Shown here: one piece after another, positions 1-7,422 of the stretch
How the letters are laid out: every line of letters begins with the position of its first letter
Numbering within the stretch: position 1 is the first letter of the stretch
Source of the DNA: Alphaproteobacteria bacterium
GTDB taxonomy: Bacteria; Pseudomonadota; Alphaproteobacteria; Zavarziniales; Zavarziniaceae
Reading direction: 5' to 3'
Assembly (NCBI GenBank): GCA_021774355.1
Contig: JAJFJE010000154.1
Coordinates: 1-28,574, forward strand
DNA: 28,574 nt
Translations under genes and position numbers: made by a program
Notes under the pieces: model-generated
The model's database searches: none
What the model was told of the DNA's origin: nothing
Seen by the model: the letters and a program-made list of their open reading frames with translations, nothing else

Positions 1-1
1 C

Positions 2-355
2 AGCCTGCCGGCCGAGTTCGCCGCCCTGGTCGCGGGCTGCCGCGCCGCCCATGCCGCGACCGGCCGGGTGGCCTATGGCCCGACCCCGCGGGAGGCCGGC
101 TCGATCGTCTTCCGCCGCTCGCTGTTCGTCACCGCCCCGATCGCCCGGGGCGACAGCTTCAGCCGGGCCAACCTGCGGGTGGTCCGGCCCGGTCACGGCC
201 TGGCGCCGCGGCACCTGCCGGCAATCCTCGGGCGGCGCGCCGCCCGCGCCATTGCGCCGGGCGAGCCCCTGTCCTGGGACCTGATCGATCCCGCCGGGGC
301 GGCCCCGGCCGAGACGGAGGAGATCGATGCGCGTCGTCGCCCTGCTCGCTCGTAG
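2..355 (+). CDS. pseI: Pseudaminic acid synthase PseI (NeuB family), C-terminal part with SAF domain; 5' end outside window
   Basis: Frame from nt 2 reads SLPAEFAAL...YGPTPREAGSIVFRRSLF...VRPGHGLAPRHL..ILGRRAAR.I..GEPLSWDLI, typical of the PseI C-terminus. TAG at 353-355; pseB/pseC nearby. Confidence 0.88.
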   Translation, partial: SLPAEFAALVAGCRAAHAATGRVAYGPTPREAGSIVFRRSLFVTAPIARGDSFSRANLRVVRPGHGLAPRHLPAILGRRAARAIAPGEPLSWDLIDPAGAAPAETEEIDARRRPARS

Positions 356-989
356 GCCCGGCCTGCTGGTCCTGCACGATGCCCTGCTGGCCGATCCCGG
401 GCTGGAGGTCGCTGCGGTCTTCACCCACGGCATGCTGCCCCGGGCCGCCGGCGGCGGCGCCCGCGACGAGGTCGCGGAGTTCGCCGCCCTGTGCCGGCGC
501 CGCGCCGTGCCCCTCCACGTGCTCGACTTCCCCCAGGCCCGGGACATCGGCCCGCGCCTGCCCGGCGGCCCGCTGGACCTGCTGGTCTCCCTGTCCTGGC
601 GTGCCCTGGTGCCGCAGGCCGTGCTCGACCGCTTCGCCCGGGGGACCGTTAACCTCCATCGCGGCGCCCTGCCCGCCTATGGCGGGGCCGAGCCGGTGCG
701 CCGGGCGATCGAGGCCGGCGAGCGCCGGGCGGCGATCACGGCCCATGCCATGACCGCGGAAATCGACGCCGGGGCGATCCTGGCCGAGACCTGGTACGAC
801 CTGCCGCCCTGCCCCCCGGCGGATGCGACGGCGGCCCATGCGGAACGGGTCAAGACCATGATCGAGCCGCTTTATGCGCCGCTCTGCCGGCTGGTCCTGG
901 CCGGGCAACGCCTGACCGGACACCCGGTGGCCGGACACCCACCGGCCGGACAACGCCTGGCCGGGCAGCACCTGACCGGCCAGGCGTGA
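327..989 (+). CDS. Stand-alone formyltransferase (Formyl_trans_N fold), candidate sugar N-formyltransferase
   Basis: Catalytic N-x-H in TVNLHRGALPAYGG and the Asp in TAHAMTAEIDAGAIL. About 190 aa catalytic domain with no Fmt C-terminal domain; start overlaps the pseI 3' end. Confidence 0.8.
   Translation: MRVVALLARRPGLLVLHDALLADPGLEVAAVFTHGMLPRAAGGGARDEVAEFAALCRRRAVPLHVLDFPQARDIGPRLPGGPLDLLVSLSWRALVPQAVLDRFARGTVNLHRGALPAYGGAEPVRRAIEAGERRAAITAHAMTAEIDAGAILAETWYDLPPCPPADATAAHAERVKTMIEPLYAPLCRLVLAGQRLTGHPVAGHPPAGQRLAGQHLTGQA
900..989 (+). repeat. Six degenerate 15-bp tandem repeats encoding pentapeptides at the formyltransferase C-terminus
   Basis: Units: gccgggcaacgcctg / accggacacccggtg / gccggacacccaccg / gccggacaacgcctg / gccgggcagcacctg / accggccaggcgtga = AGQRL TGHPV AGHPP AGQRL AGQHL TGQA*. 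Confidence 0.9.
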
Positions 990-1615
990 TGGCGCCGGCC
1001 CTGCTGCTGGATTTCGACGGCACCCTGTGCGCCAGCCTGGATGCCCTGCGCGCGGCCTATCACGGTTTCCTGGCGGGCCACGGCCGGACCGGCAGCGACC
1101 GCGAATTCGACCGCCTGAACGGCCCGCCCCTGGCAATTATCGCCCGCCTGCTGGCCCGCCGCCACGGCCTGACCGAACCGCCGGAAATTCTGCTGGGCCG
1201 CTACCGGGCCCTGGCCCGCCGGGCCCAGGACGGGGCCCGGCCGGCGGCCGGGGCCGGCCGCCTGCTGGCCGCCGCCCGCGGCCGCTATGCCGTGGCCGTG
1301 GTCACCTCGGCGGACGGGCCGACGGTCGCCGCCTGGCTGGCCCGCCACGCCCTGGCGGTCGATCTGGTGGTCGGGGGCGGCGAGACCACGGCGGGCAAGC
1401 CCGATCCCGCGCCCTATCGCCTGGCCCTGGCACGCCTGGGGGCCGACGCCGCAACCAGCCTGGCGGTCGAAGACAGCGTCCAGGGCGCCCGCTCGGCGCT
1501 CGGCGCCGGGGTCGCGACGGCCTATCTGGGGCGGGTCCTGCCGGCCGGCCTGGCCGGCCACCCCCTGATCCGGGGGCCGGTCGACGGGCTCGACGCCGTT
1601 ATTCCGCTGCTTTGA
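989..1615 (+). CDS. HAD-superfamily phosphatase (subfamily IA)
   Basis: Motifs DFDGT (I), VVTS (II), KPDP (III), VEDS (IV). ATG at 989 overlaps the upstream TGA (GTG at 986 is an alternative start). Confidence 0.85.
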   Translation: MAPALLLDFDGTLCASLDALRAAYHGFLAGHGRTGSDREFDRLNGPPLAIIARLLARRHGLTEPPEILLGRYRALARRAQDGARPAAGAGRLLAAARGRYAVAVVTSADGPTVAAWLARHALAVDLVVGGGETTAGKPDPAPYRLALARLGADAATSLAVEDSVQGARSALGAGVATAYLGRVLPAGLAGHPLIRGPVDGLDAVIPLL

Positions 1616-2762
1616 CCGCTTGGCACAGGGCGCCCAGTTGGGCGATCACAAAGCCCTGCTCGTCGTCGGACAGGCGCGGATAAAGGGGCAGCGACAAGGC
1701 CCCGGCATAATGCCGTTCAGCCACCGGAAACTGCCCGGGCGCAAAGCCCCGGGCCCGCCAGAAGGGCTGCAGGTGGATCGGGATATAGTGGACGTTGACC
1801 CCGATCCCGGCCTGGCGCAGGGCGACCAGGGCCTCGGCCCGGCTGGCCGGCGGCCAATCGACCACATAGAGATGCCAGGCCGAGGCAAGGCCGGCGGGAA
1901 CCCGGGGTAGGCCCAGGCCAAGCCCCGCCAGGGCCCGGTCATAGCGGGCGGCCAGCGCCGTCCGGCGGGCGACAAAGGCGCCCAGCCGGCCGATCTGGGA
2001 CAGGCCCAGGGCCGCCTGGATATCGGTCAGGCGGTAATTGAAGCCCAATGCCTGCTGTTCGTAGAACCACGGACCGTCGCAGGGCAGGGTCATCTCGGCA
2101 GGGTCGCGGGTGATGCCGTGACTGCGCAGCAGGCGCAGGCGCGCCGCCAGCCGGGCATCGTTGGTGGCGACCAGTCCGCCTTCGCCGGCGGTGATAATCT
2201 TGACCGGGTGCAGGCTGAAGACGGTCATGGCCGAGTAGCTGCAGGCGCCGACCGGCGCCGCGCCGTCATGCGCCCCCAGGGCGTGACAGGCGTCCTCGAC
2301 CACCGTGGCGCCGTAGCGCGCGGCGAGCGCCGCAATCTCGGCCATGGCCGCGGGCAGGCCGGCGAAATGGACCGGCACGATCAGGTCGGGCAGGCAACCA
2401 TCCCGTTCCGCCTGCTCCAGCTTGAGCGCCAGGGCGGCCGGCGCCATGGTCCGGGTAACCGGATCGATATCGACGAAATCGACCGTCGCGCCGCAATAAA
2501 GCGCCGCATTGGCTGTGGCGACGAAGCTGTTGGGCACGGTCCAGACCCGCGACCCGGGGCCGATCCCGGCGGCGAGATAAGCGAGATGGAGGGCGGCGGT
2601 GCCGCTGCTGACGGCCACCCCATGGGCTGCGCCCGTGGCAGCCGCGGCCGCTGCCTCGAAGCGCGGACCCACCGGGCCCTGGGTCAGGACGTCGGAGCGC
2701 AGCACCGCCACCACGGCGGCAATATCCGCCTCCGCGATATCCTGACGTCCATAGGGGATCAT
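1599..2762 (-). CDS. pseC: UDP-4-amino-4,6-dideoxy-N-acetyl-beta-L-altrosamine transaminase PseC (DegT/DnrJ family)
   Basis: N-terminus MIPYGRQDI...LTQGP, PLP lysine in FSLHPVKIITAGEGG, WFYEQQALGFNYRLTDIQAALG. ATGA overlap with pseB. Confidence 0.93.
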   Translation of the reverse strand: MIPYGRQDIAEADIAAVVAVLRSDVLTQGPVGPRFEAAAAAATGAAHGVAVSSGTAALHLAYLAAGIGPGSRVWTVPNSFVATANAALYCGATVDFVDIDPVTRTMAPAALALKLEQAERDGCLPDLIVPVHFAGLPAAMAEIAALAARYGATVVEDACHALGAHDGAAPVGACSYSAMTVFSLHPVKIITAGEGGLVATNDARLAARLRLLRSHGITRDPAEMTLPCDGPWFYEQQALGFNYRLTDIQAALGLSQIGRLGAFVARRTALAARYDRALAGLGLGLPRVPAGLASAWHLYVVDWPPASRAEALVALRQAGIGVNVHYIPIHLQPFWRARGFAPGQFPVAERHYAGALSLPLYPRLSDDEQGFVIAQLGALCQAVKAAE

Positions 2763-3841
2763 GCGCAGGCTCTCATGCCCCGGTCGGCAAGGGCCGCGGC
2801 GGCGGTGATCGCCGCCAGTCCATAGGCGGCGAAGCTGTCATTGGCCAGGGCGTGCCGGTTATAGGCCAGGATCTCCGCCTCGCTCAGGAAATAGCCGTTA
2901 TTGTCCGAACGGTAGTCGAAACTGTCCTCGACCGGACGGCCCGTCTCGCCCAGCCGGTTATGGCTGTAGTCGAACTCGCGGCCGTAATATTTGATGGTCG
3001 GCTGGATCACGAAATGGTCGTCGAATTCCAGGGTCAAACGGGAATCGTCGACCGGGCACATCACCTCGTGGAGCTTCTCGCCGGGGCGGATACCCACCCC
3101 CTTGCGCGGCAGGTGGGGCGCCATCGCATGGGCCAGGTCGTCGATGCGCACCGACGGGATCTTGGGCACGAAGATCTCGCCGCCATGCATGCGGGCGAAA
3201 TTGCGCAGCACGAAATCGACCCCCTGCTGCAGGGTGATCCAGAACCGGGTCATGCGCACGTCGGTCACCGGCAGGTGATCGCTGCCTTCACGGATCAGGC
3301 GTTCGAAGAACGGCACCACCGAACCGGCCGAGGCCACCACATTGCCGTAGCGGACCACCGAGAACCGGGTGCCGCCGGCGCCCGACAGGTTGTTGGCCGC
3401 GACGAACAGCTTGTCCGAGGCGAGCTTGGAGGCACCGTAAAGATTGACCGGGTTGGCCGCCTTGTCGGTCGACAGGGCGATGACCTGCTTGACCCCCTCC
3501 TCGATGGCGGCGCGGATCAGGTTTTCCGCCCCGTAGATATTGGTCTTCAGGCATTCGAACGGATTATATTCAGCCAGCGGCACATGCTTCATGGCCGCCG
3601 CGTGGATCACATAATCCACCTTGCGCATGGCCATCTTCAGCCGTTCGTAGTCGCGCACGTCGCCGACGAAGAAGCGCAGGCGCGGATCGGGCCGGTCGAG
3701 GCTCAACTGGTAGTGCTTCTGCTCGTCGCGGGAGAAAACGATGACGCTGTGGCAGTCGTAGCGCTTCAGCAATGTATCGACATAGCGGCGCCCGAACGAG
3801 CCGGTACCGCCGGTGATGAGAAGCCTAGCGCCATCGAACAT
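2759..3841 (-). CDS. pseB: UDP-N-acetylglucosamine 4,6-dehydratase (inverting) PseB
   Basis: TGGTGSFG Rossmann motif, LSTDKA and YGASK catalytic motifs, MTRFWITL, GIRPGEKLHEVM; coupled to pseC. Confidence 0.95.
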   Translation of the reverse strand: MFDGARLLITGGTGSFGRRYVDTLLKRYDCHSVIVFSRDEQKHYQLSLDRPDPRLRFFVGDVRDYERLKMAMRKVDYVIHAAAMKHVPLAEYNPFECLKTNIYGAENLIRAAIEEGVKQVIALSTDKAANPVNLYGASKLASDKLFVAANNLSGAGGTRFSVVRYGNVVASAGSVVPFFERLIREGSDHLPVTDVRMTRFWITLQQGVDFVLRNFARMHGGEIFVPKIPSVRIDDLAHAMAPHLPRKGVGIRPGEKLHEVMCPVDDSRLTLEFDDHFVIQPTIKYYGREFDYSHNRLGETGRPVEDSFDYRSDNNGYFLSEAEILAYNRHALANDSFAAYGLAAITAAAALADRGMRACA

Positions 3842-3899
3842 GGTGGGACCCTTGCTTGATCAGGACCCCATTGGACCCCCTCCATCGTTAACAAATCGG

Positions 3900-5732
3900 T
3901 TATGGCGACAAGGGTTCGGCCGCGACCTGTGGCAGAGCGCGCAGGTGATGGCGTAATAACGCGCCCAGCCGGTCCCGCCCGAACCCCCGGCGATGAACCT
4001 GCTGCAGGAACATCACGTCGAGATTAGTATTGCCTTCGAGCAGCAGCGCCCCCCGGTCGGTCACCGCAATGTCCCAGCCGACCAGCAGGCGATGGGCGAA
4101 GGCGGCGTGGGCGGCCAGCGCCAGCGCCTTGACCTCGGGCCATTGGTCGAGCCGGCCGCCGGCCACCGGCCGGCCGGTCACCGGGTGCCGGCTGAACCGT
4201 TCGGCGCAGCGCGCCAGGCGGTCGCTGGCAACCATCCCGAGGCGGCCATCGGCCAGGTCGATCGGCGTGCCGAATTCGTCGTTGCACGGCCATTCCGGCT
4301 CGAGCTTCGACAGCACCCGCAGCATTGCATGGGTGACCTCCGGCACGCCCTCGGGGTCGAGGCAGGTGACCACCCGGATCGTGACCAGAGAGGCGTCGGC
4401 AAAGCCGGCCAGGTCGGCATGATTGCGCAGACAGGGCTGGACCAGGACCGGCACGGCGGCGGCCCGCAGCCGCTCGACAAGCTGGTCGAGCGACAGCTCC
4501 CGGCCCGCATTGTCCTGGTAGCGTTCCGGGGCGACCCGGCGAAACCGCGCGGCGCCCCGCGCCCCCAGGCCGCGCCGCGGCTTGCAGAACAGGTCCTGGT
4601 CGAGGGTGGCGCGCGGCACCCGGCGCAGCACCGCGCCGGCCCCGGCCACCATCAGCACCGGCGCGGCGGCCAGGCCGTGCTGCTCGCAGCATTCGGCGAA
4701 GAGCAGCTTGTCGTTCATCTCGTGGCCCGCAAAGGGCTGCGGCCGGGCAGTGTTCAGGGCATAGAGCAGGCCGTTCTTGGTCTCGTAGCGGGTCAGGTAA
4801 TGGACCGCCTCGGCCCGCCGCTGGGGGAGATAGAGCTCGTGGGCGTAATAGCTGGGCGGGTCGACGCCGTCGTTGAATCCCAGCACCATCAGGTCGGCCA
4901 CTTGTCCGAACCGCGACCGGCCGCCGGCACGGCGGGCAATGCCGCCCAGCCGTGCCGCCAGGCCCAGGCAGACCACGACCAGCAGCAATTCCTTCAGCAC
5001 CGGGTAGAAGGCGGCGCGTACCGGCGGATATTTGGCGCTGCGGAACAGCCCGGCCGTGCGAAACAGCCGCCTGGCCTCGCTGCCGACAGCCAGGCCGCCA
5101 AAGCGGGGAAACGCCTGGGTTCCGGCGGCCACCGGGACCAGGGTGGCCGCCCGCAGCACCAGGGCCGCGACATAGGCCTCGATACACAGCAATTCCATCA
5201 TCTCGGTCAGCGCGGAAAAGCGCTCGGCAGAGACGGGCCAGTCCGCGGGCAGCAGGCCTTCGGCCACGTCCAGGGCCATCGACGCCAATTGCAGCGCCAG
5301 CCCGGCCGTCCAGCACCGGGACGCCCAGGGTCGACGGCGGTGGCCGCCGAGGGCGCCACGGAGCAGCAAGGCGACCGTCAGCCACAGGGGCAGATTGAGG
5401 ATCAGATCGACGTCCGGCAGGTCGTCGATGCCGTCGAACCAGTCGGTTGCCTGGATCAGGGTCAGCGCAACCATGGCAAAACTCGCCATCCACCAGCGCC
5501 GGCGGTCGTCGCTGCCCAGCGCCGCGGTGACGGCGTGGGCAAGGCTCCAGGCCAGGCCCGCAAGGACCGCCGCGGCGGAACCCAGCTCGACCGGCGAATC
5601 GATTCGCCAGGCGGGAATGGGGGTGGCGAACTGCACTAATCCGGTCGCCAGGCCATAGGCGGCGGCGATCACCAGGACCATCCCGGCACTGCCCGGCGGG
5701 AATTTCGGCCAACGGCCGATAGAATGAGTCAT
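3900..5732 (-). CDS. Membrane domain fused to a sugar-transfer-associated ATP-grasp domain (ATPgrasp_ST-like)
   Basis: First ~190 aa contain several hydrophobic helices. C-terminal ~300 aa carry ATP-grasp motifs NDKLLF, DLFCKPRRGLGARG, VLVQPCLRNH, TIRVVT, GWDIAVT..GALLLEGN. GGAG RBS upstream. Confidence 0.75.
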   Translation of the reverse strand: MTHSIGRWPKFPPGSAGMVLVIAAAYGLATGLVQFATPIPAWRIDSPVELGSAAAVLAGLAWSLAHAVTAALGSDDRRRWWMASFAMVALTLIQATDWFDGIDDLPDVDLILNLPLWLTVALLLRGALGGHRRRPWASRCWTAGLALQLASMALDVAEGLLPADWPVSAERFSALTEMMELLCIEAYVAALVLRAATLVPVAAGTQAFPRFGGLAVGSEARRLFRTAGLFRSAKYPPVRAAFYPVLKELLLVVVCLGLAARLGGIARRAGGRSRFGQVADLMVLGFNDGVDPPSYYAHELYLPQRRAEAVHYLTRYETKNGLLYALNTARPQPFAGHEMNDKLLFAECCEQHGLAAAPVLMVAGAGAVLRRVPRATLDQDLFCKPRRGLGARGAARFRRVAPERYQDNAGRELSLDQLVERLRAAAVPVLVQPCLRNHADLAGFADASLVTIRVVTCLDPEGVPEVTHAMLRVLSKLEPEWPCNDEFGTPIDLADGRLGMVASDRLARCAERFSRHPVTGRPVAGGRLDQWPEVKALALAAHAAFAHRLLVGWDIAVTDRGALLLEGNTNLDVMFLQQVHRRGFGRDRLGALLRHHLRALPQVAAEPLSP

Positions 5733-5790
5733 GGCAAGCTCCCGGCCGCCGCGAAGATCAGGCGCCGTGGCGCAGTGTCACGCAGAGCGG

Positions 5791-5808
5791 CTGACAGCAG
5801 GCTGACAG
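5791..5808 (-). promoter_or_regulatory. Pho-box-like 11-bp-period direct repeat (OmpR/PhoB-family site) upstream of the ATP-grasp gene
   Basis: Minus strand CTGTCAG-CCTG-CTGTCAG (TGTCA-N6-TGTCA); a -10-like GACACT lies 11 nt downstream (5779-5774). Confidence 0.5.
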
Positions 5809-5918
5809 CAGCGCGCCGGGCGCATGGACCCGGCCGCCCAAACGGGGTTCCCGCAGCGGCGCGATCCTCGCCATAATCGAGCCCCACAGCGCCGCCGGCG
5901 CGTCGAGACGAGGCAGGA

Positions 5919-6434
5919 ATGGCAGAAACCGCAACGGCGCAGGATCACGGGCCCCTGGACCCGCGCGTCTTCCGCGATGTCGCCGGGCGCTTCGCCACGG
6001 GCATCGCCGTGGTGACAATGGTAACCGAGGCGGGCGCCAAGCTCGGCGTCACGGTCAATTCCTTCAACACCGTATCCCTCGATCCGCCGCTCGTTCTGTT
6101 TTCCCTGCGCAACGAGGCCAGCTGCTACGAGGCCTTCACCACGGCCGGCGCCTATGCCGTGAACATCCTCGCGGCCGACCAGGTCGAGGTCTCCCGCGCC
6201 TTCGCCCGCTTTGCCGGCGACGGCTGGGCAGTGACGCCGCATCAGGTGAGCGCCCGTGGCTGCCCGGTGTTCGACGGCGCCCTGGCGGTCTTCGAATGCG
6301 TGCCCTGGCAGCGTTACGAAGGCGGCGACCATGTCATCATGGTGGGCCGTGTGGTCCGCGCCACCGCACCCCGCAACGGCGAGCCGCTGATGTATTATTG
6401 CGGCGCCTACCATAACGCCATCGTCAAGGCGTGA
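5919..6434 (+). CDS. Flavin reductase family protein (HpaC/RutF-like)
   Basis: FRDVAGRFATGIAVVT, GVTVNSFNTVSLDPPLVLFS, GGDHVIMVGRV. AGGA RBS. Confidence 0.92.
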   Translation: MAETATAQDHGPLDPRVFRDVAGRFATGIAVVTMVTEAGAKLGVTVNSFNTVSLDPPLVLFSLRNEASCYEAFTTAGAYAVNILAADQVEVSRAFARFAGDGWAVTPHQVSARGCPVFDGALAVFECVPWQRYEGGDHVIMVGRVVRATAPRNGEPLMYYCGAYHNAIVKA

Positions 6435-6459
6435 GCGGCGCCCGGGAACGCCGCCGCCG

Positions 6460-7422
6460 TCAGAGCGACAGGGCGGCCGCCTGGGCCAGCGCCGCCCGGT
6501 AGTCGGCGAACAGCCGTGCCGAGAGGTCGGCGACGGTCGGGACATCGGTGATCGAGCCGACCCCCTGGCCGGCCGACCAGACATCCTTCCAGGCCCGCGC
6601 CTCCTTGCCCATGTCGAGCTTTTCCGGGCGCTTCAGCTGGTCGGGGTCGAGCCCTGCAGCGGCAATCGACGGGCGCAGGAAATTGGCGTCCACGCCGCTG
6701 ATGCCGGGGGTATAGACGATGTCCCCGGCATGGGCATCGACGATCATCTGCTTGTAGCCGGGGTCTGACAGGGCTTCCCGGGTGGCGATGAAGCGGGTGC
6801 CCAGATAGGCCAGATCGGCCCCCAGCAGGCGTGCGGCGGCGATCTGGGCGCCGGTCGAGATCGCCCCCGACAGGATGATCGTCTTGTCGAAAAAGCTGCG
6901 CAGTTCGGGGATCAGGGCAAAGGGGCTCAAGGTCCCGGCATGGCCGCCCGCACCGGCGCAGACCGCGATCAGGCCGTCGACCCCGGCGCCGGCGGCCTTG
7001 CGGCCATGGCGGATGTTGATCACGTCGTGGAACACCAGGCCGCCATAGGCGTGGACCGCATCGACCACCTCCTTGACCGCCCCGAGGGAGGTGATGACCA
7101 GGGGCACCTTGCGGGCGACGGTCAGGCGCAGATCGGCCTCCAGCCGGGTATTTGACGGATGGACGATCAGGTTGACGCCGAACGGCGCCGGCCGCGCGCC
7201 CTCCGCGGCAAGGGCGGCGAGGCGGCCTTCGATCTCGTCGAGCCAGGCGCCATAGGCTTCGGTGCTGCGCTGGTTGAGCGCCGGGAAGGTGCCCAGTATG
7301 CCGGCCCGGCAGGCTTCGACCACCAGATCGGGGCCGGACACCAGGAACATCGGCGCGGCGATCGCCGGGAGGGCCAGGCGGCCCTTGAGGGTGGCTGGAA
7401 GCGGCACGGCTGGTTCCCCCAT
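6460..7422 (-). CDS. Nitronate monooxygenase-family flavoprotein (NAD(P)H-dependent flavin oxidoreductase)
   Basis: APMFLVSG, FGVNLIVH, AGAGGHAG, AYLGTRFIAT, WSAGQGVG. Confidence 0.9.
   Translation of the reverse strand: MGEPAVPLPATLKGRLALPAIAAPMFLVSGPDLVVEACRAGILGTFPALNQRSTEAYGAWLDEIEGRLAALAAEGARPAPFGVNLIVHPSNTRLEADLRLTVARKVPLVITSLGAVKEVVDAVHAYGGLVFHDVINIRHGRKAAGAGVDGLIAVCAGAGGHAGTLSPFALIPELRSFFDKTIILSGAISTGAQIAAARLLGADLAYLGTRFIATREALSDPGYKQMIVDAHAGDIVYTPGISGVDANFLRPSIAAAGLDPDQLKRPEKLDMGKEARAWKDVWSAGQGVGSITDVPTVADLSARLFADYRAALAQAAALSL

What the first reader, a model, noticed from the sequence alone, without database searches (positions are those of the whole stretch)
2..5732. Pse glycosylation locus with an unusual tailoring set: formyltransferase, HAD phosphatase and membrane ATP-grasp ligase
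Seen: pseI, pseC and pseB interleaved with three enzymes outside the canonical PseB-C-H-G-I-F route. Known: PseC makes a free amine that becomes N7 of Pse and is normally acetylated by PseH; N7-formyl and other N-acyl Pse variants exist. Inference: this locus may make a formylated and/or amino-acylated nonulosonate, with the ATP-grasp protein ligating a carboxylate to a sugar amine at the membrane. That would be an undescribed Pse-tailoring system. pseH/G/F are not in the window and may lie upstream.
Basis: partly seen in the sequence, partly recalled or inferred. Interest (0 to 1): 0.75.

Follow-up and report, generated by a model that had tools for sequence, protein, structure and literature searches.

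The report
Pseudaminic acid locus lacking PseG/PseH
This is the cut-off end of a gene cluster for the sialic-acid-like sugar pseudaminic acid, in which a small formyltransferase and a HAD phosphatase (working with a NUDT22-like Nudix enzyme that lies just off the contig) most likely stand in for the textbook enzymes PseH and PseG; the neighbouring membrane ATP-grasp gene is probably unrelated.

Summary
The window is a whole contig, so the cluster is cut at base 1.

The three "extra" genes are not one tailoring set.
- The formyltransferase and the HAD belong to a conserved module whose third member is a NUDT22-like Nudix hydrolase. That gene is missing from this assembly but lies directly upstream of pseI in the closest relative.
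- All 12 genomes with this formyltransferase also have the HAD and the Nudix. None has an equivalog-level PseH and 10 lack PseG.
- HAD-Nudix fusion proteins exist, and the pair sits beside pseI in most metagenome loci.
- Most likely route: formyltransferase in place of PseH, giving Pse5Ac7Fo; Nudix (UDP-sugar to UMP + sugar-1-P) plus HAD (dephosphorylation) in place of PseG.
- Caveat: three genomes carry both PseG and the Nudix, in one as a single fused protein.

The ATP-grasp gene is never linked to pse genes elsewhere.

A Pse N-formyltransferase (PseJ) is already known. I found no paper on the Nudix+HAD route, but this scan had already noted the module on other DNA.

The parts
2..355 (+). 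3' end of pseI (pseudaminic acid synthase), 117 aa, cut by the contig end
   Evidence: SAF domain. TIGR03586 PseI 75 bits over model positions 240-327, better than NeuB at 43 bits. The full-length orthologue in relative L032 scores 393.8 bits against a cut-off of 340.25.
327..989 (+). Single-domain formyltransferase (220 aa), candidate N-formyltransferase acting in place of PseH
   Evidence: PF00551 at 56.7 bits. N109, H111 and D147 are invariant in 20 family members. The start ATG follows GGAGGAG and overlaps pseI by 29 bases. It lies adjacent to pseI and/or HAD/Nudix in 12 genome loci and in L032.
986..1615 (+). HAD-IA phosphatase (209 aa), candidate sugar-1-phosphate phosphatase working after the Nudix
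   Evidence: HAD_2/Hydrolase Pfam hits. DxDGT, Ser108, Lys138 and Glu162-Asp are invariant. The start overlaps the formyltransferase stop (GTGATG). Nearest solved relatives are sugar-phosphate phosphatases and beta-phosphoglucomutase. It is fused to the Nudix in five family representatives.
1599..2762 (-). pseC, UDP-4-amino-4,6-dideoxy-AltNAc transaminase
   Evidence: TIGR03588 489 bits against a cut-off of 423.5.
2759..3841 (-). pseB, inverting UDP-GlcNAc 4,6-dehydratase
   Evidence: TIGR03589 501 bits against a cut-off of 407.75. It overlaps pseC by 4 bases.
3900..5732 (-). Membrane-anchored ATPgrasp_ST protein (610 aa); a neighbour, probably not part of the Pse pathway
   Evidence: PF14397 at 100.4 bits, residues 339-583. 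About seven N-terminal helices and a confident ATP-grasp fold resembling D-Ala:D-Ala ligase and LysX. No conserved linkage with pse genes.

Best explanation
The window holds the right-hand part of a pseudaminic acid (Pse) locus of a Zavarzinia-related alphaproteobacterial MAG: [Nudix, lost in an assembly gap] | pseI-formyltransferase-HAD | pseC-pseB. Shown: pseB, pseC and pseI are orthologue-grade. The formyltransferase, the HAD and a NUDT22-like Nudix form a conserved gene set that travels with pseI/pseB/pseC. The HAD and the Nudix occur as fused proteins. PseG and PseH are mostly missing where this set is present. Inferred mechanism: PseB and PseC make UDP-4-amino-4,6-dideoxy-beta-L-AltNAc. 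The formyltransferase (N10-formyl-THF dependent, intact Asn-His-Asp triad) formylates the 4-amine instead of PseH acetylating it. The Nudix cleaves the pyrophosphate to give UMP + sugar-1-phosphate, as NUDT22 does with UDP-glucose. The HAD removes the 1-phosphate to give the free hexose. PseI condenses the hexose with PEP to give Pse5Ac7Fo, and the unlinked PseF (contig C257) activates it. A Maf glycosyltransferase beside flagellin (contig C55) is the likely user. The ATP-grasp gene upstream of pseB is a lineage-specific neighbour of unknown substrate, not a Pse enzyme.
For: Gene identities. Module conservation: of 12 genomes found with the formyltransferase family, all have the HAD and the Nudix-like gene (the Nudix match is weak and short in G418), clustered with each other or with pse genes. 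Relative L032 is colinear with the window at 79.5% DNA identity and has the Nudix directly upstream of pseI. PseG: no match in 10 of those 12 genomes or in the window's own genome. PseH: none above cut-off in any of the 12 or in the window's own genome. Nudix identity: AlphaFold model pLDDT 95; the top six PDB matches are all human NUDT22 (E about 1e-13, TM 0.79-0.80) against TM 0.48 for the next protein; the Nudix-box glutamates are invariant. NUDT22 converts UDP-glucose to UMP + glucose-1-phosphate (PMC10101856 abstract). Anchoring on the Nudix instead: in 19 metagenome loci with at least 6 kb of flank, the HAD is within 3 kb in 15, pseI in 14 and PseG in 0. Fusions: five HAD-Nudix fusion proteins among the top 150 family representatives. 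Baseline: 55 of 70 high-quality PseB-positive genomes of the class have a PseG-like gene. ATP-grasp.
Against: There is no biochemistry; everything rests on gene context and fold. The Nudix gene is not in this assembly, so its presence here is inferred from a relative. Three of 14 Nudix-bearing genomes also have a PseG with its catalytic His motif. In G350 the Nudix is fused to PseF-PseG-GNAT in one 1008-aa protein, so the pair cannot simply be a substitute for PseG everywhere. Most Nudix/HAD loci lack this formyltransferase (3 of 19 have it), so its step and substrate are not fixed by context. The HAD also resembles a HAD-type inorganic pyrophosphatase. The genome is 93% complete, so a pseG or pseH in a gap cannot be excluded. 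The ATP-grasp gene is co-directional with pseB, 58 bases upstream, with no detected terminator between them, so co-transcription is possible.
Confidence: 0.6

Rival explanations
1. One reading: formyltransferase, HAD and ATP-grasp form one Pse-tailoring set, with the membrane ATP-grasp ligating a carboxylate (for example an amino acid) to a sugar amine, while canonical pseH/G/F lie upstream.
For: The ATP-grasp gene lies 58 bases upstream of pseB on the same strand, with no terminator-like site between them. Its Pfam family is named for association with sugar-transfer genes. One distant family member (28% identity) sits next to a DegT-type aminotransferase.
Against: No ATP-grasp hit in 13 formyltransferase-anchored and 72 Nudix-anchored loci. 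Full-length homologues at about 40% identity sit in four unrelated contexts without pse genes. Not found in 10 genomes of the same family. pseF is on another contig, and the relative has the Nudix, not pseG/H, upstream of pseI.
Confidence: 0.08
2. The Nudix+HAD pair is an accessory or parallel branch rather than a PseG replacement. It would release free sugar only from UDP intermediates that PseG does not take (N4-formyl, unacylated or methylated variants), or it would clear surplus UDP intermediates, while a PseG-type hydrolase (canonical, divergent or unassembled) still does the main step.
For: The Nudix co-exists with an apparently active PseG in G350 (fused), G414 and G417. A methyltransferase is the commonest extra neighbour of the pair. 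Six PseB+PseI+ genomes have neither PseG nor the Nudix, so other unrecognised solutions exist. The window's own genome is only 93% complete.
Against: No PseG match in 11 of 14 Nudix-bearing genomes, against 15 of 70 in the PseB-positive baseline. The pair is most tightly linked to pseI, the consumer of the free sugar.
Confidence: 0.22
3. The HAD is not a sugar-1-phosphatase. It would be a pyrophosphatase that pulls the PseF reaction, or a housekeeping phosphoglycolate-type phosphatase that happens to sit here.
For: The second-best solved relatives are the HAD-type inorganic pyrophosphatase BT2127, and there are weak NCBIfam hits to PpaX and phosphoglycolate phosphatase.
Against: The HAD is fused to the Nudix, or lies immediately upstream of it, in many lineages (23 of 51 loci with room upstream; five fusion proteins). 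It is rarely near pseF, and in this genome pseF is on another contig.
Confidence: 0.07

Closest known systems
Canonical CMP-pseudaminic acid pathway PseB-PseC-PseH-PseG-PseI-PseF (Campylobacter jejuni, Helicobacter pylori; FlmA/B/H/D, NeuB, FlmC in Caulobacter, PMC7591256)
   Same: PseB, PseC and PseI (in the relative) score above the equivalog cut-offs, and a PseF above cut-off is present in the genome. A Maf glycosyltransferase beside flagellin suggests the usual target.
   Different: No PseG match and no PseH above cut-off in the genome. A formyltransferase and a HAD lie between pseI and pseC. pseF is unlinked, among housekeeping genes.
PseJ, the Pse-pathway N-formyltransferase (PDB 6ci2/6ci4; credited with Pse5Ac7Fo biosynthesis in PMC11040635)
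   Same: A single-domain formyltransferase of about 200 aa, encoded in a Pse locus in place of PseH. The expected reaction and product (7-N-formyl Pse) are the same.
   Different: Only a remote sequence relative: profile E 8e-8 (35 bits), against 6e-22 for Met-tRNA formyltransferase and about 1e-16 for the ArnA N-domain. It is therefore an independent recruitment within the superfamily. From memory only, not checked here: PseJ was studied together with a canonical PseG.
Human NUDT22, UDP-glucose/galactose pyrophosphatase (PDB 5lor, 5lf9)
   Same: The Nudix partner of the module shares the whole two-domain fold (TM 0.79-0.80) and the Nudix-box glutamates. The proposed reaction is the same: UDP-sugar to UMP + sugar-1-phosphate.
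   Different: 18-19% sequence identity, bacterial, about 240 aa, and encoded beside or fused to a HAD phosphatase and pseI. The substrate is presumed to be a UDP-2,4-diamino-2,4,6-trideoxyhexose. The gene is not present in this window or assembly.
HAD-IA sugar-phosphate phosphatases and beta-phosphoglucomutase (for example TM1254, PDB 3kbb)
   Same: All four HAD motifs and a C1-cap architecture. Best profile match is 6e-29 to a phosphorylated-carbohydrate phosphatase.
   Different: No equivalog match in NCBIfam. It forms a distinct clade defined by linkage or fusion to the NUDT22-like Nudix.

Membership tests
PseB (TIGR03589) | Full-length score above the curated equivalog cut-off | tested here: met
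   501.1 bits against 407.75
PseC (TIGR03588) | Full-length score above the curated equivalog cut-off | tested here: met
   489 bits against 423.5
PseI (TIGR03586) | Full-length score above the curated cut-off, and better than NeuB | tested here: inconclusive
   Only the last 88 model positions are in the window: 75 bits, against 43 bits for NeuB. The colinear relative L032 scores 393.8 bits against 340.25.
Formyltransferase superfamily (PF00551) | Domain match plus the catalytic Asn-His-Asp triad | tested here: met
   56.7 bits against 26.1. N109, H111 and D147 are invariant in 20 sequences.
PseJ family | Close sequence relationship to PseJ (PDB 6ci2/6ci4) | tested here: not met
   Profile E 8e-8, 35 bits, ranked below Fmt, ArnA, PurU and PurN
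PseJ family | Formylates UDP-4-amino-4,6-dideoxy-AltNAc | not testable with these tools
   Needs an enzyme assay
HAD-IA phosphatase | Motifs I-IV (DxDGT, S/T, K, E/D-D) | tested here: met
   D9, D11, G12, T13, S108, K138 and E162 are invariant in 9 sequences
NUDT22-like Nudix partner | Present in this genome | tested here: not met
   No match in the 93%-complete assembly. Present directly upstream of pseI in L032. The matching 1.65 kb is missing from the assembly.
NUDT22-like Nudix partner | Two-domain NUDT22 fold and Nudix-box glutamates (tested on relatives) | tested here: met
   Foldseek top six hits are NUDT22, TM 0.79-0.80. E137, E140 and E141 are invariant.
PseG (TIGR03590) | Any match in the genome | tested here: not met
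   0 matches at E <= 0.001. Also none in 10 of 12 module genomes.
PseH (TIGR03585) | Score above the curated cut-off (93.1 bits) | tested here: not met
   Best 33 bits in the window's own genome. None of 12 module genomes is above the cut-off.
ATPgrasp_ST (PF14397) | Domain match above the gathering score | tested here: met
   100.4 bits against 31.4. The modelled ATP-grasp fold resembles Ddl/LysX.
ATPgrasp_ST as a Pse enzyme | Conserved linkage with pse genes | tested here: not met
   0 of 85 module loci, and 0 of 6 full-length homologue loci

The most novel reading that the evidence does not exclude
Many bacteria make pseudaminic acids without PseG. A bacterial NUDT22-type Nudix pyrophosphatase and a dedicated HAD phosphatase (often fused) release the free hexose in two steps, UDP-sugar to sugar-1-P to sugar. 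In a subset, including this organism, a small Fmt/ArnA-like formyltransferase unrelated to PseJ replaces PseH, giving Pse5Ac7Fo for flagellin glycosylation.
Probability: 0.5. Interest if true: 0.7.

Novelty: new variant of a known kind. Interest (0 to 1): 0.6.

Why it matters
Pse is needed for flagellar assembly and for capsule and LPS structure in many bacteria, and PseG is treated as a universal step and as a drug and annotation marker. A two-enzyme Nudix+HAD route would matter in four ways. It would explain why many genomes with pseB/C/I appear to lack pseG. It would give the first bacterial role to the NUDT22 fold. It would supply new enzymes for chemoenzymatic synthesis of N-variant Pse sugars such as Pse5Ac7Fo. 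It would improve pathway calling in metagenomes. The Nudix family has about 925 representative clusters at E <= 1e-30.

Tried and rejected
- ATP-grasp protein against genome contigs: no close relatives found.
- Formyltransferase in a 400-genome class sample: only one other genome was positive, so it was of no use for statistics.
- The first Nudix alignment was too diverse for the metagenome scan, so a 5-sequence alignment was used instead.
- The Nudix in the window's own genome: not found by tblastn, by profile, or by DNA from the relative.
- Strict complementarity of PseG and the Nudix was tested and rejected as a rule. G350, G414 and G417 have both, and six PseB+PseI+ genomes have neither.
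- The unassigned neighbours in those six genomes gave no Pfam hit that explains the PseG step.
- Promoter/terminator scan of bases 1-6600: uninformative.
- Fold search of the ATP-grasp model gave only generic ATP-grasp ligases, and its membrane half was modelled with low confidence.
- Literature: 'pseudaminic acid' + Nudix returned three irrelevant papers, and 'nonulosonic' + Nudix returned none. The rkp genes of Sinorhizobium proved to be canonical, with RkpO = PseG. The original PseJ paper is not in the library.
- No complex prediction was run, because no binding claim is made.
Full report
**1. What is in the window**

The window is the entire contig C62 (28,574 bases) of a MAG with 442 contigs, 2.85 Mb, 68% G+C and 93% completeness.
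- A 117-aa C-terminal fragment of a NeuB-type synthase at 2-355 (+). It has a SAF domain and fits the last 88 positions of the PseI model better than those of NeuB.
- A 220-aa Formyl_trans_N protein at 327-989 (+).
- A 209-aa HAD-IA hydrolase at 986-1615 (+).
- pseC at 1599-2762 (-), 489 bits against a cut-off of 423.5.
- pseB at 2759-3841 (-), 501 bits against 407.75.
- A 610-aa ATPgrasp_ST protein at 3900-5732 (-).

The formyltransferase start follows a GGAGGAG box inside the end of pseI. Its stop overlaps the HAD start (GTGATG), so pseI, the formyltransferase and the HAD look translationally coupled. Genes beyond 5778 are unrelated: flavin reductase, nitronate monooxygenase, acyl-AMP ligase.

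**2. The rest of the pathway in this genome**

- A PseF above cut-off lies on contig C257, between purA and cyaY.
- PseG gives no match at all, and PseH gives nothing above 33 bits.
- Contig C55 carries flagellin, FlbT, a GT41-like protein and a Maf glycosyltransferase. Flagellin is therefore the likely recipient of the sugar.

**3. The ATP-grasp gene**

- Full-length homologues exist at about 40% identity. They sit in four unrelated neighbourhoods with no pse genes: beside an aldolase in the rlpA-dacC-tmk-holB-metG block (three loci), beside DUF347/CoxG genes, beside rimP, and beside rlmL.
- The gene was not found in 10 genomes of the same family, nor in any of 85 loci holding the module described below.
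- Its model shows a confident ATP-grasp domain resembling D-Ala:D-Ala ligase and LysX, behind about seven poorly modelled helices.
- I read it as a membrane-anchored carboxylate-amine ligase of unknown substrate that happens to lie upstream of pseB. Co-transcription cannot be excluded: the spacer is 58 bases and no terminator was found.

**4. The formyltransferase and the HAD belong to a three-gene module**

- The formyltransferase defines a family of proteins of about 200 aa with an invariant Asn-His-Asp triad.
- In the closest relative, L032, the order is Nudix-like (-) | pseI, formyltransferase, HAD (+) | pseC, pseB (-). L032 is colinear with window 3-3094 at 79.5% DNA identity.
- Twelve genomes found with the family profile carry the same set in various orders: two Zavarzinia, two Magnetospirillum, a Magnetococcales MAG, Rickettsiales-, Hyphomicrobiales- and Rhodobacterales-labelled MAGs, a Chlamydiae MAG and others. 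All 12 have the HAD and the Nudix-like gene, next to each other or next to pseB or pseI. The Nudix match is weak and short in G418.
- Eleven of the 12 have an equivalog-grade PseB. Ten have no PseG match, and none has a PseH above cut-off.
- The Nudix-like gene is absent from the window's own assembly. The 1.65 kb that holds it in L032 has no counterpart on any contig, so it most likely fell into the gap at the contig end.

**5. What the partners are**

- The Nudix-like protein hits Pfam NUDIX only weakly, but its Nudix-box glutamates are invariant.
- Its best sequence match in the PDB is human NUDT22, over nearly its full length.
- Its AlphaFold model has pLDDT 95. The top six fold matches are all NUDT22 (E about 1e-13, TM 0.79-0.80), against TM 0.48 for the next protein. 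NUDT22 hydrolyses UDP-glucose to UMP and glucose-1-phosphate (PMC10101856).
- The HAD has all four catalytic motifs. Its closest solved relatives are sugar-phosphate phosphatases and beta-phosphoglucomutases, with a HAD-type pyrophosphatase second.

**6. Independent tests of the link**

- *Anchoring on the Nudix.* A metagenome scan returned 72 loci. Among the 19 with at least 6 kb of flank, the HAD lay within 3 kb in 15, pseI in 14, this formyltransferase in 3, PseG in 0 and the ATP-grasp in 0. The HAD was the immediately upstream co-directional gene in 23 of 51 loci with room for it.
- *Family size and fusions.* The Nudix family has 925 representative clusters at E <= 1e-30. Five of the top 150 representatives are HAD-Nudix fusion proteins of 449-489 aa.
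- *Baseline.* Among 70 high-quality PseB-positive genomes of the class, 55 have a PseG-like gene, whereas 11 of 14 Nudix-bearing genomes have none.

**7. Complications**

- Three Nudix-bearing genomes also have PseG. In G350 a single 1008-aa protein carries Nudix, PseF, PseG (catalytic GTGHAMR motif kept) and a GNAT, with the HAD upstream and pseI downstream.
- G414 and G417 have a separate PseG-GNAT-formyltransferase fusion next to a PIG-L deacetylase.
- Six PseB+PseI+ genomes have neither PseG nor the Nudix.
- The Nudix+HAD pair is therefore firmly a Pse-pathway component. Whether it replaces PseG or serves intermediates that PseG does not accept (for example non-acetyl N4 variants) is open.
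- Most Nudix/HAD loci carry other accessory genes instead of this formyltransferase: a methyltransferase, a FemAB-like GNAT with a class-III aminotransferase.

**8. Most likely mechanism here (inferred)**

1. PseB and PseC make the UDP-4-amino sugar.
2. The formyltransferase formylates N4.
3. The Nudix gives UMP + sugar-1-phosphate.
4. The HAD gives the free sugar.
5. PseI gives Pse5Ac7Fo.
6. PseF activates it, and Maf transfers it to flagellin.

**9. Comparison with what is known**

- Pse5Ac7Fo is a known sugar, and a Pse formyltransferase, PseJ, has been described (cited in PMC11040635; PDB 6ci2/6ci4).
- The family here matches PseJ only at 8e-8, against 6e-22 for Fmt and about 1e-16 for ArnA. 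It is a functional analogue, not a family member.
- I found no paper linking Nudix enzymes to pseudaminic or nonulosonic acids. The library lacks most subscription journals.
- This scan had already noted the same Nudix+HAD+formyltransferase module on other DNA, with the same reading, and a DUF218 alternative elsewhere. I saw those notes only after reaching the reading above from my own.

**10. Verdict**

- Observation: confirmed.
- Interpretation: partly supported. Formyl-Pse is plausible. The ATP-grasp role is not supported. The HAD is re-read as part of a UDP-release pair, and pseG/H are probably absent rather than upstream.
- Novelty: a new variant of a known pathway. The evidence is genomic and structural only, and the key Nudix gene lies off the end of this contig.

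Noticed in passing
own genome contig C55 (L199:3-5669): A flagellin gene, flbT, a 761-aa GT41-like protein and a Maf glycosyltransferase (Maf_flag10_N + MptE-like, running off the contig) lie in a row. This is the likely user of CMP-Pse.
   Followed up: partly
own genome contig C257 (L014:2745-3446): pseF (285 bits, above cut-off) stands alone between purA and cyaY, away from the other pse genes.
   Followed up: partly
own genome contigs C329 (L006) and C396 (L015): A second NeuB-type synthase (190 bits on the PseI model) and a second CMP-sugar cytidylyltransferase (115 bits on PseF) are present. They may belong to a second nonulosonate pathway.
   Followed up: no
L196:8279-11305 (genome G350): A 1008-aa open frame fuses the NUDT22-like Nudix, PseF, PseG and a GNAT. 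A HAD and a methyltransferase lie upstream, and pseI and an SHMT-like gene lie downstream.
   Followed up: partly
L118:6086-8997 and L119:5593-7772 (genomes G414, G417): PseG-GNAT fused or adjacent to a formyltransferase of another type (with Formyl_trans_C_2), next to a PIG-L deacetylase in G414. This looks like a deacetylate-and-reformylate tailoring set.
   Followed up: no
L200:4959-7118 (genome G187); L203:14209-15198 (genome G249): Six PseB+PseI+ genomes have neither PseG nor the Nudix. In G187, PseI carries an unassigned N-terminal half of about 400 aa. In G249, a 329-aa ORF without a Pfam hit lies between pseI and pseC. These may be further stand-ins for PseG.
   Followed up: partly
genome G046 (L017, L022-L026): One alphaproteobacterial genome has six ATPgrasp_ST paralogues, three of them in tandem. 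The family expands locally, and its function is unknown.
   Followed up: no
window 3842-3899: The 58-base spacer between the ATP-grasp stop and the pseB start holds the repeated words GGGGTCC, GGGGTCC and GGGTCCC. No Shine-Dalgarno-like box is obvious before pseB.
   Followed up: no
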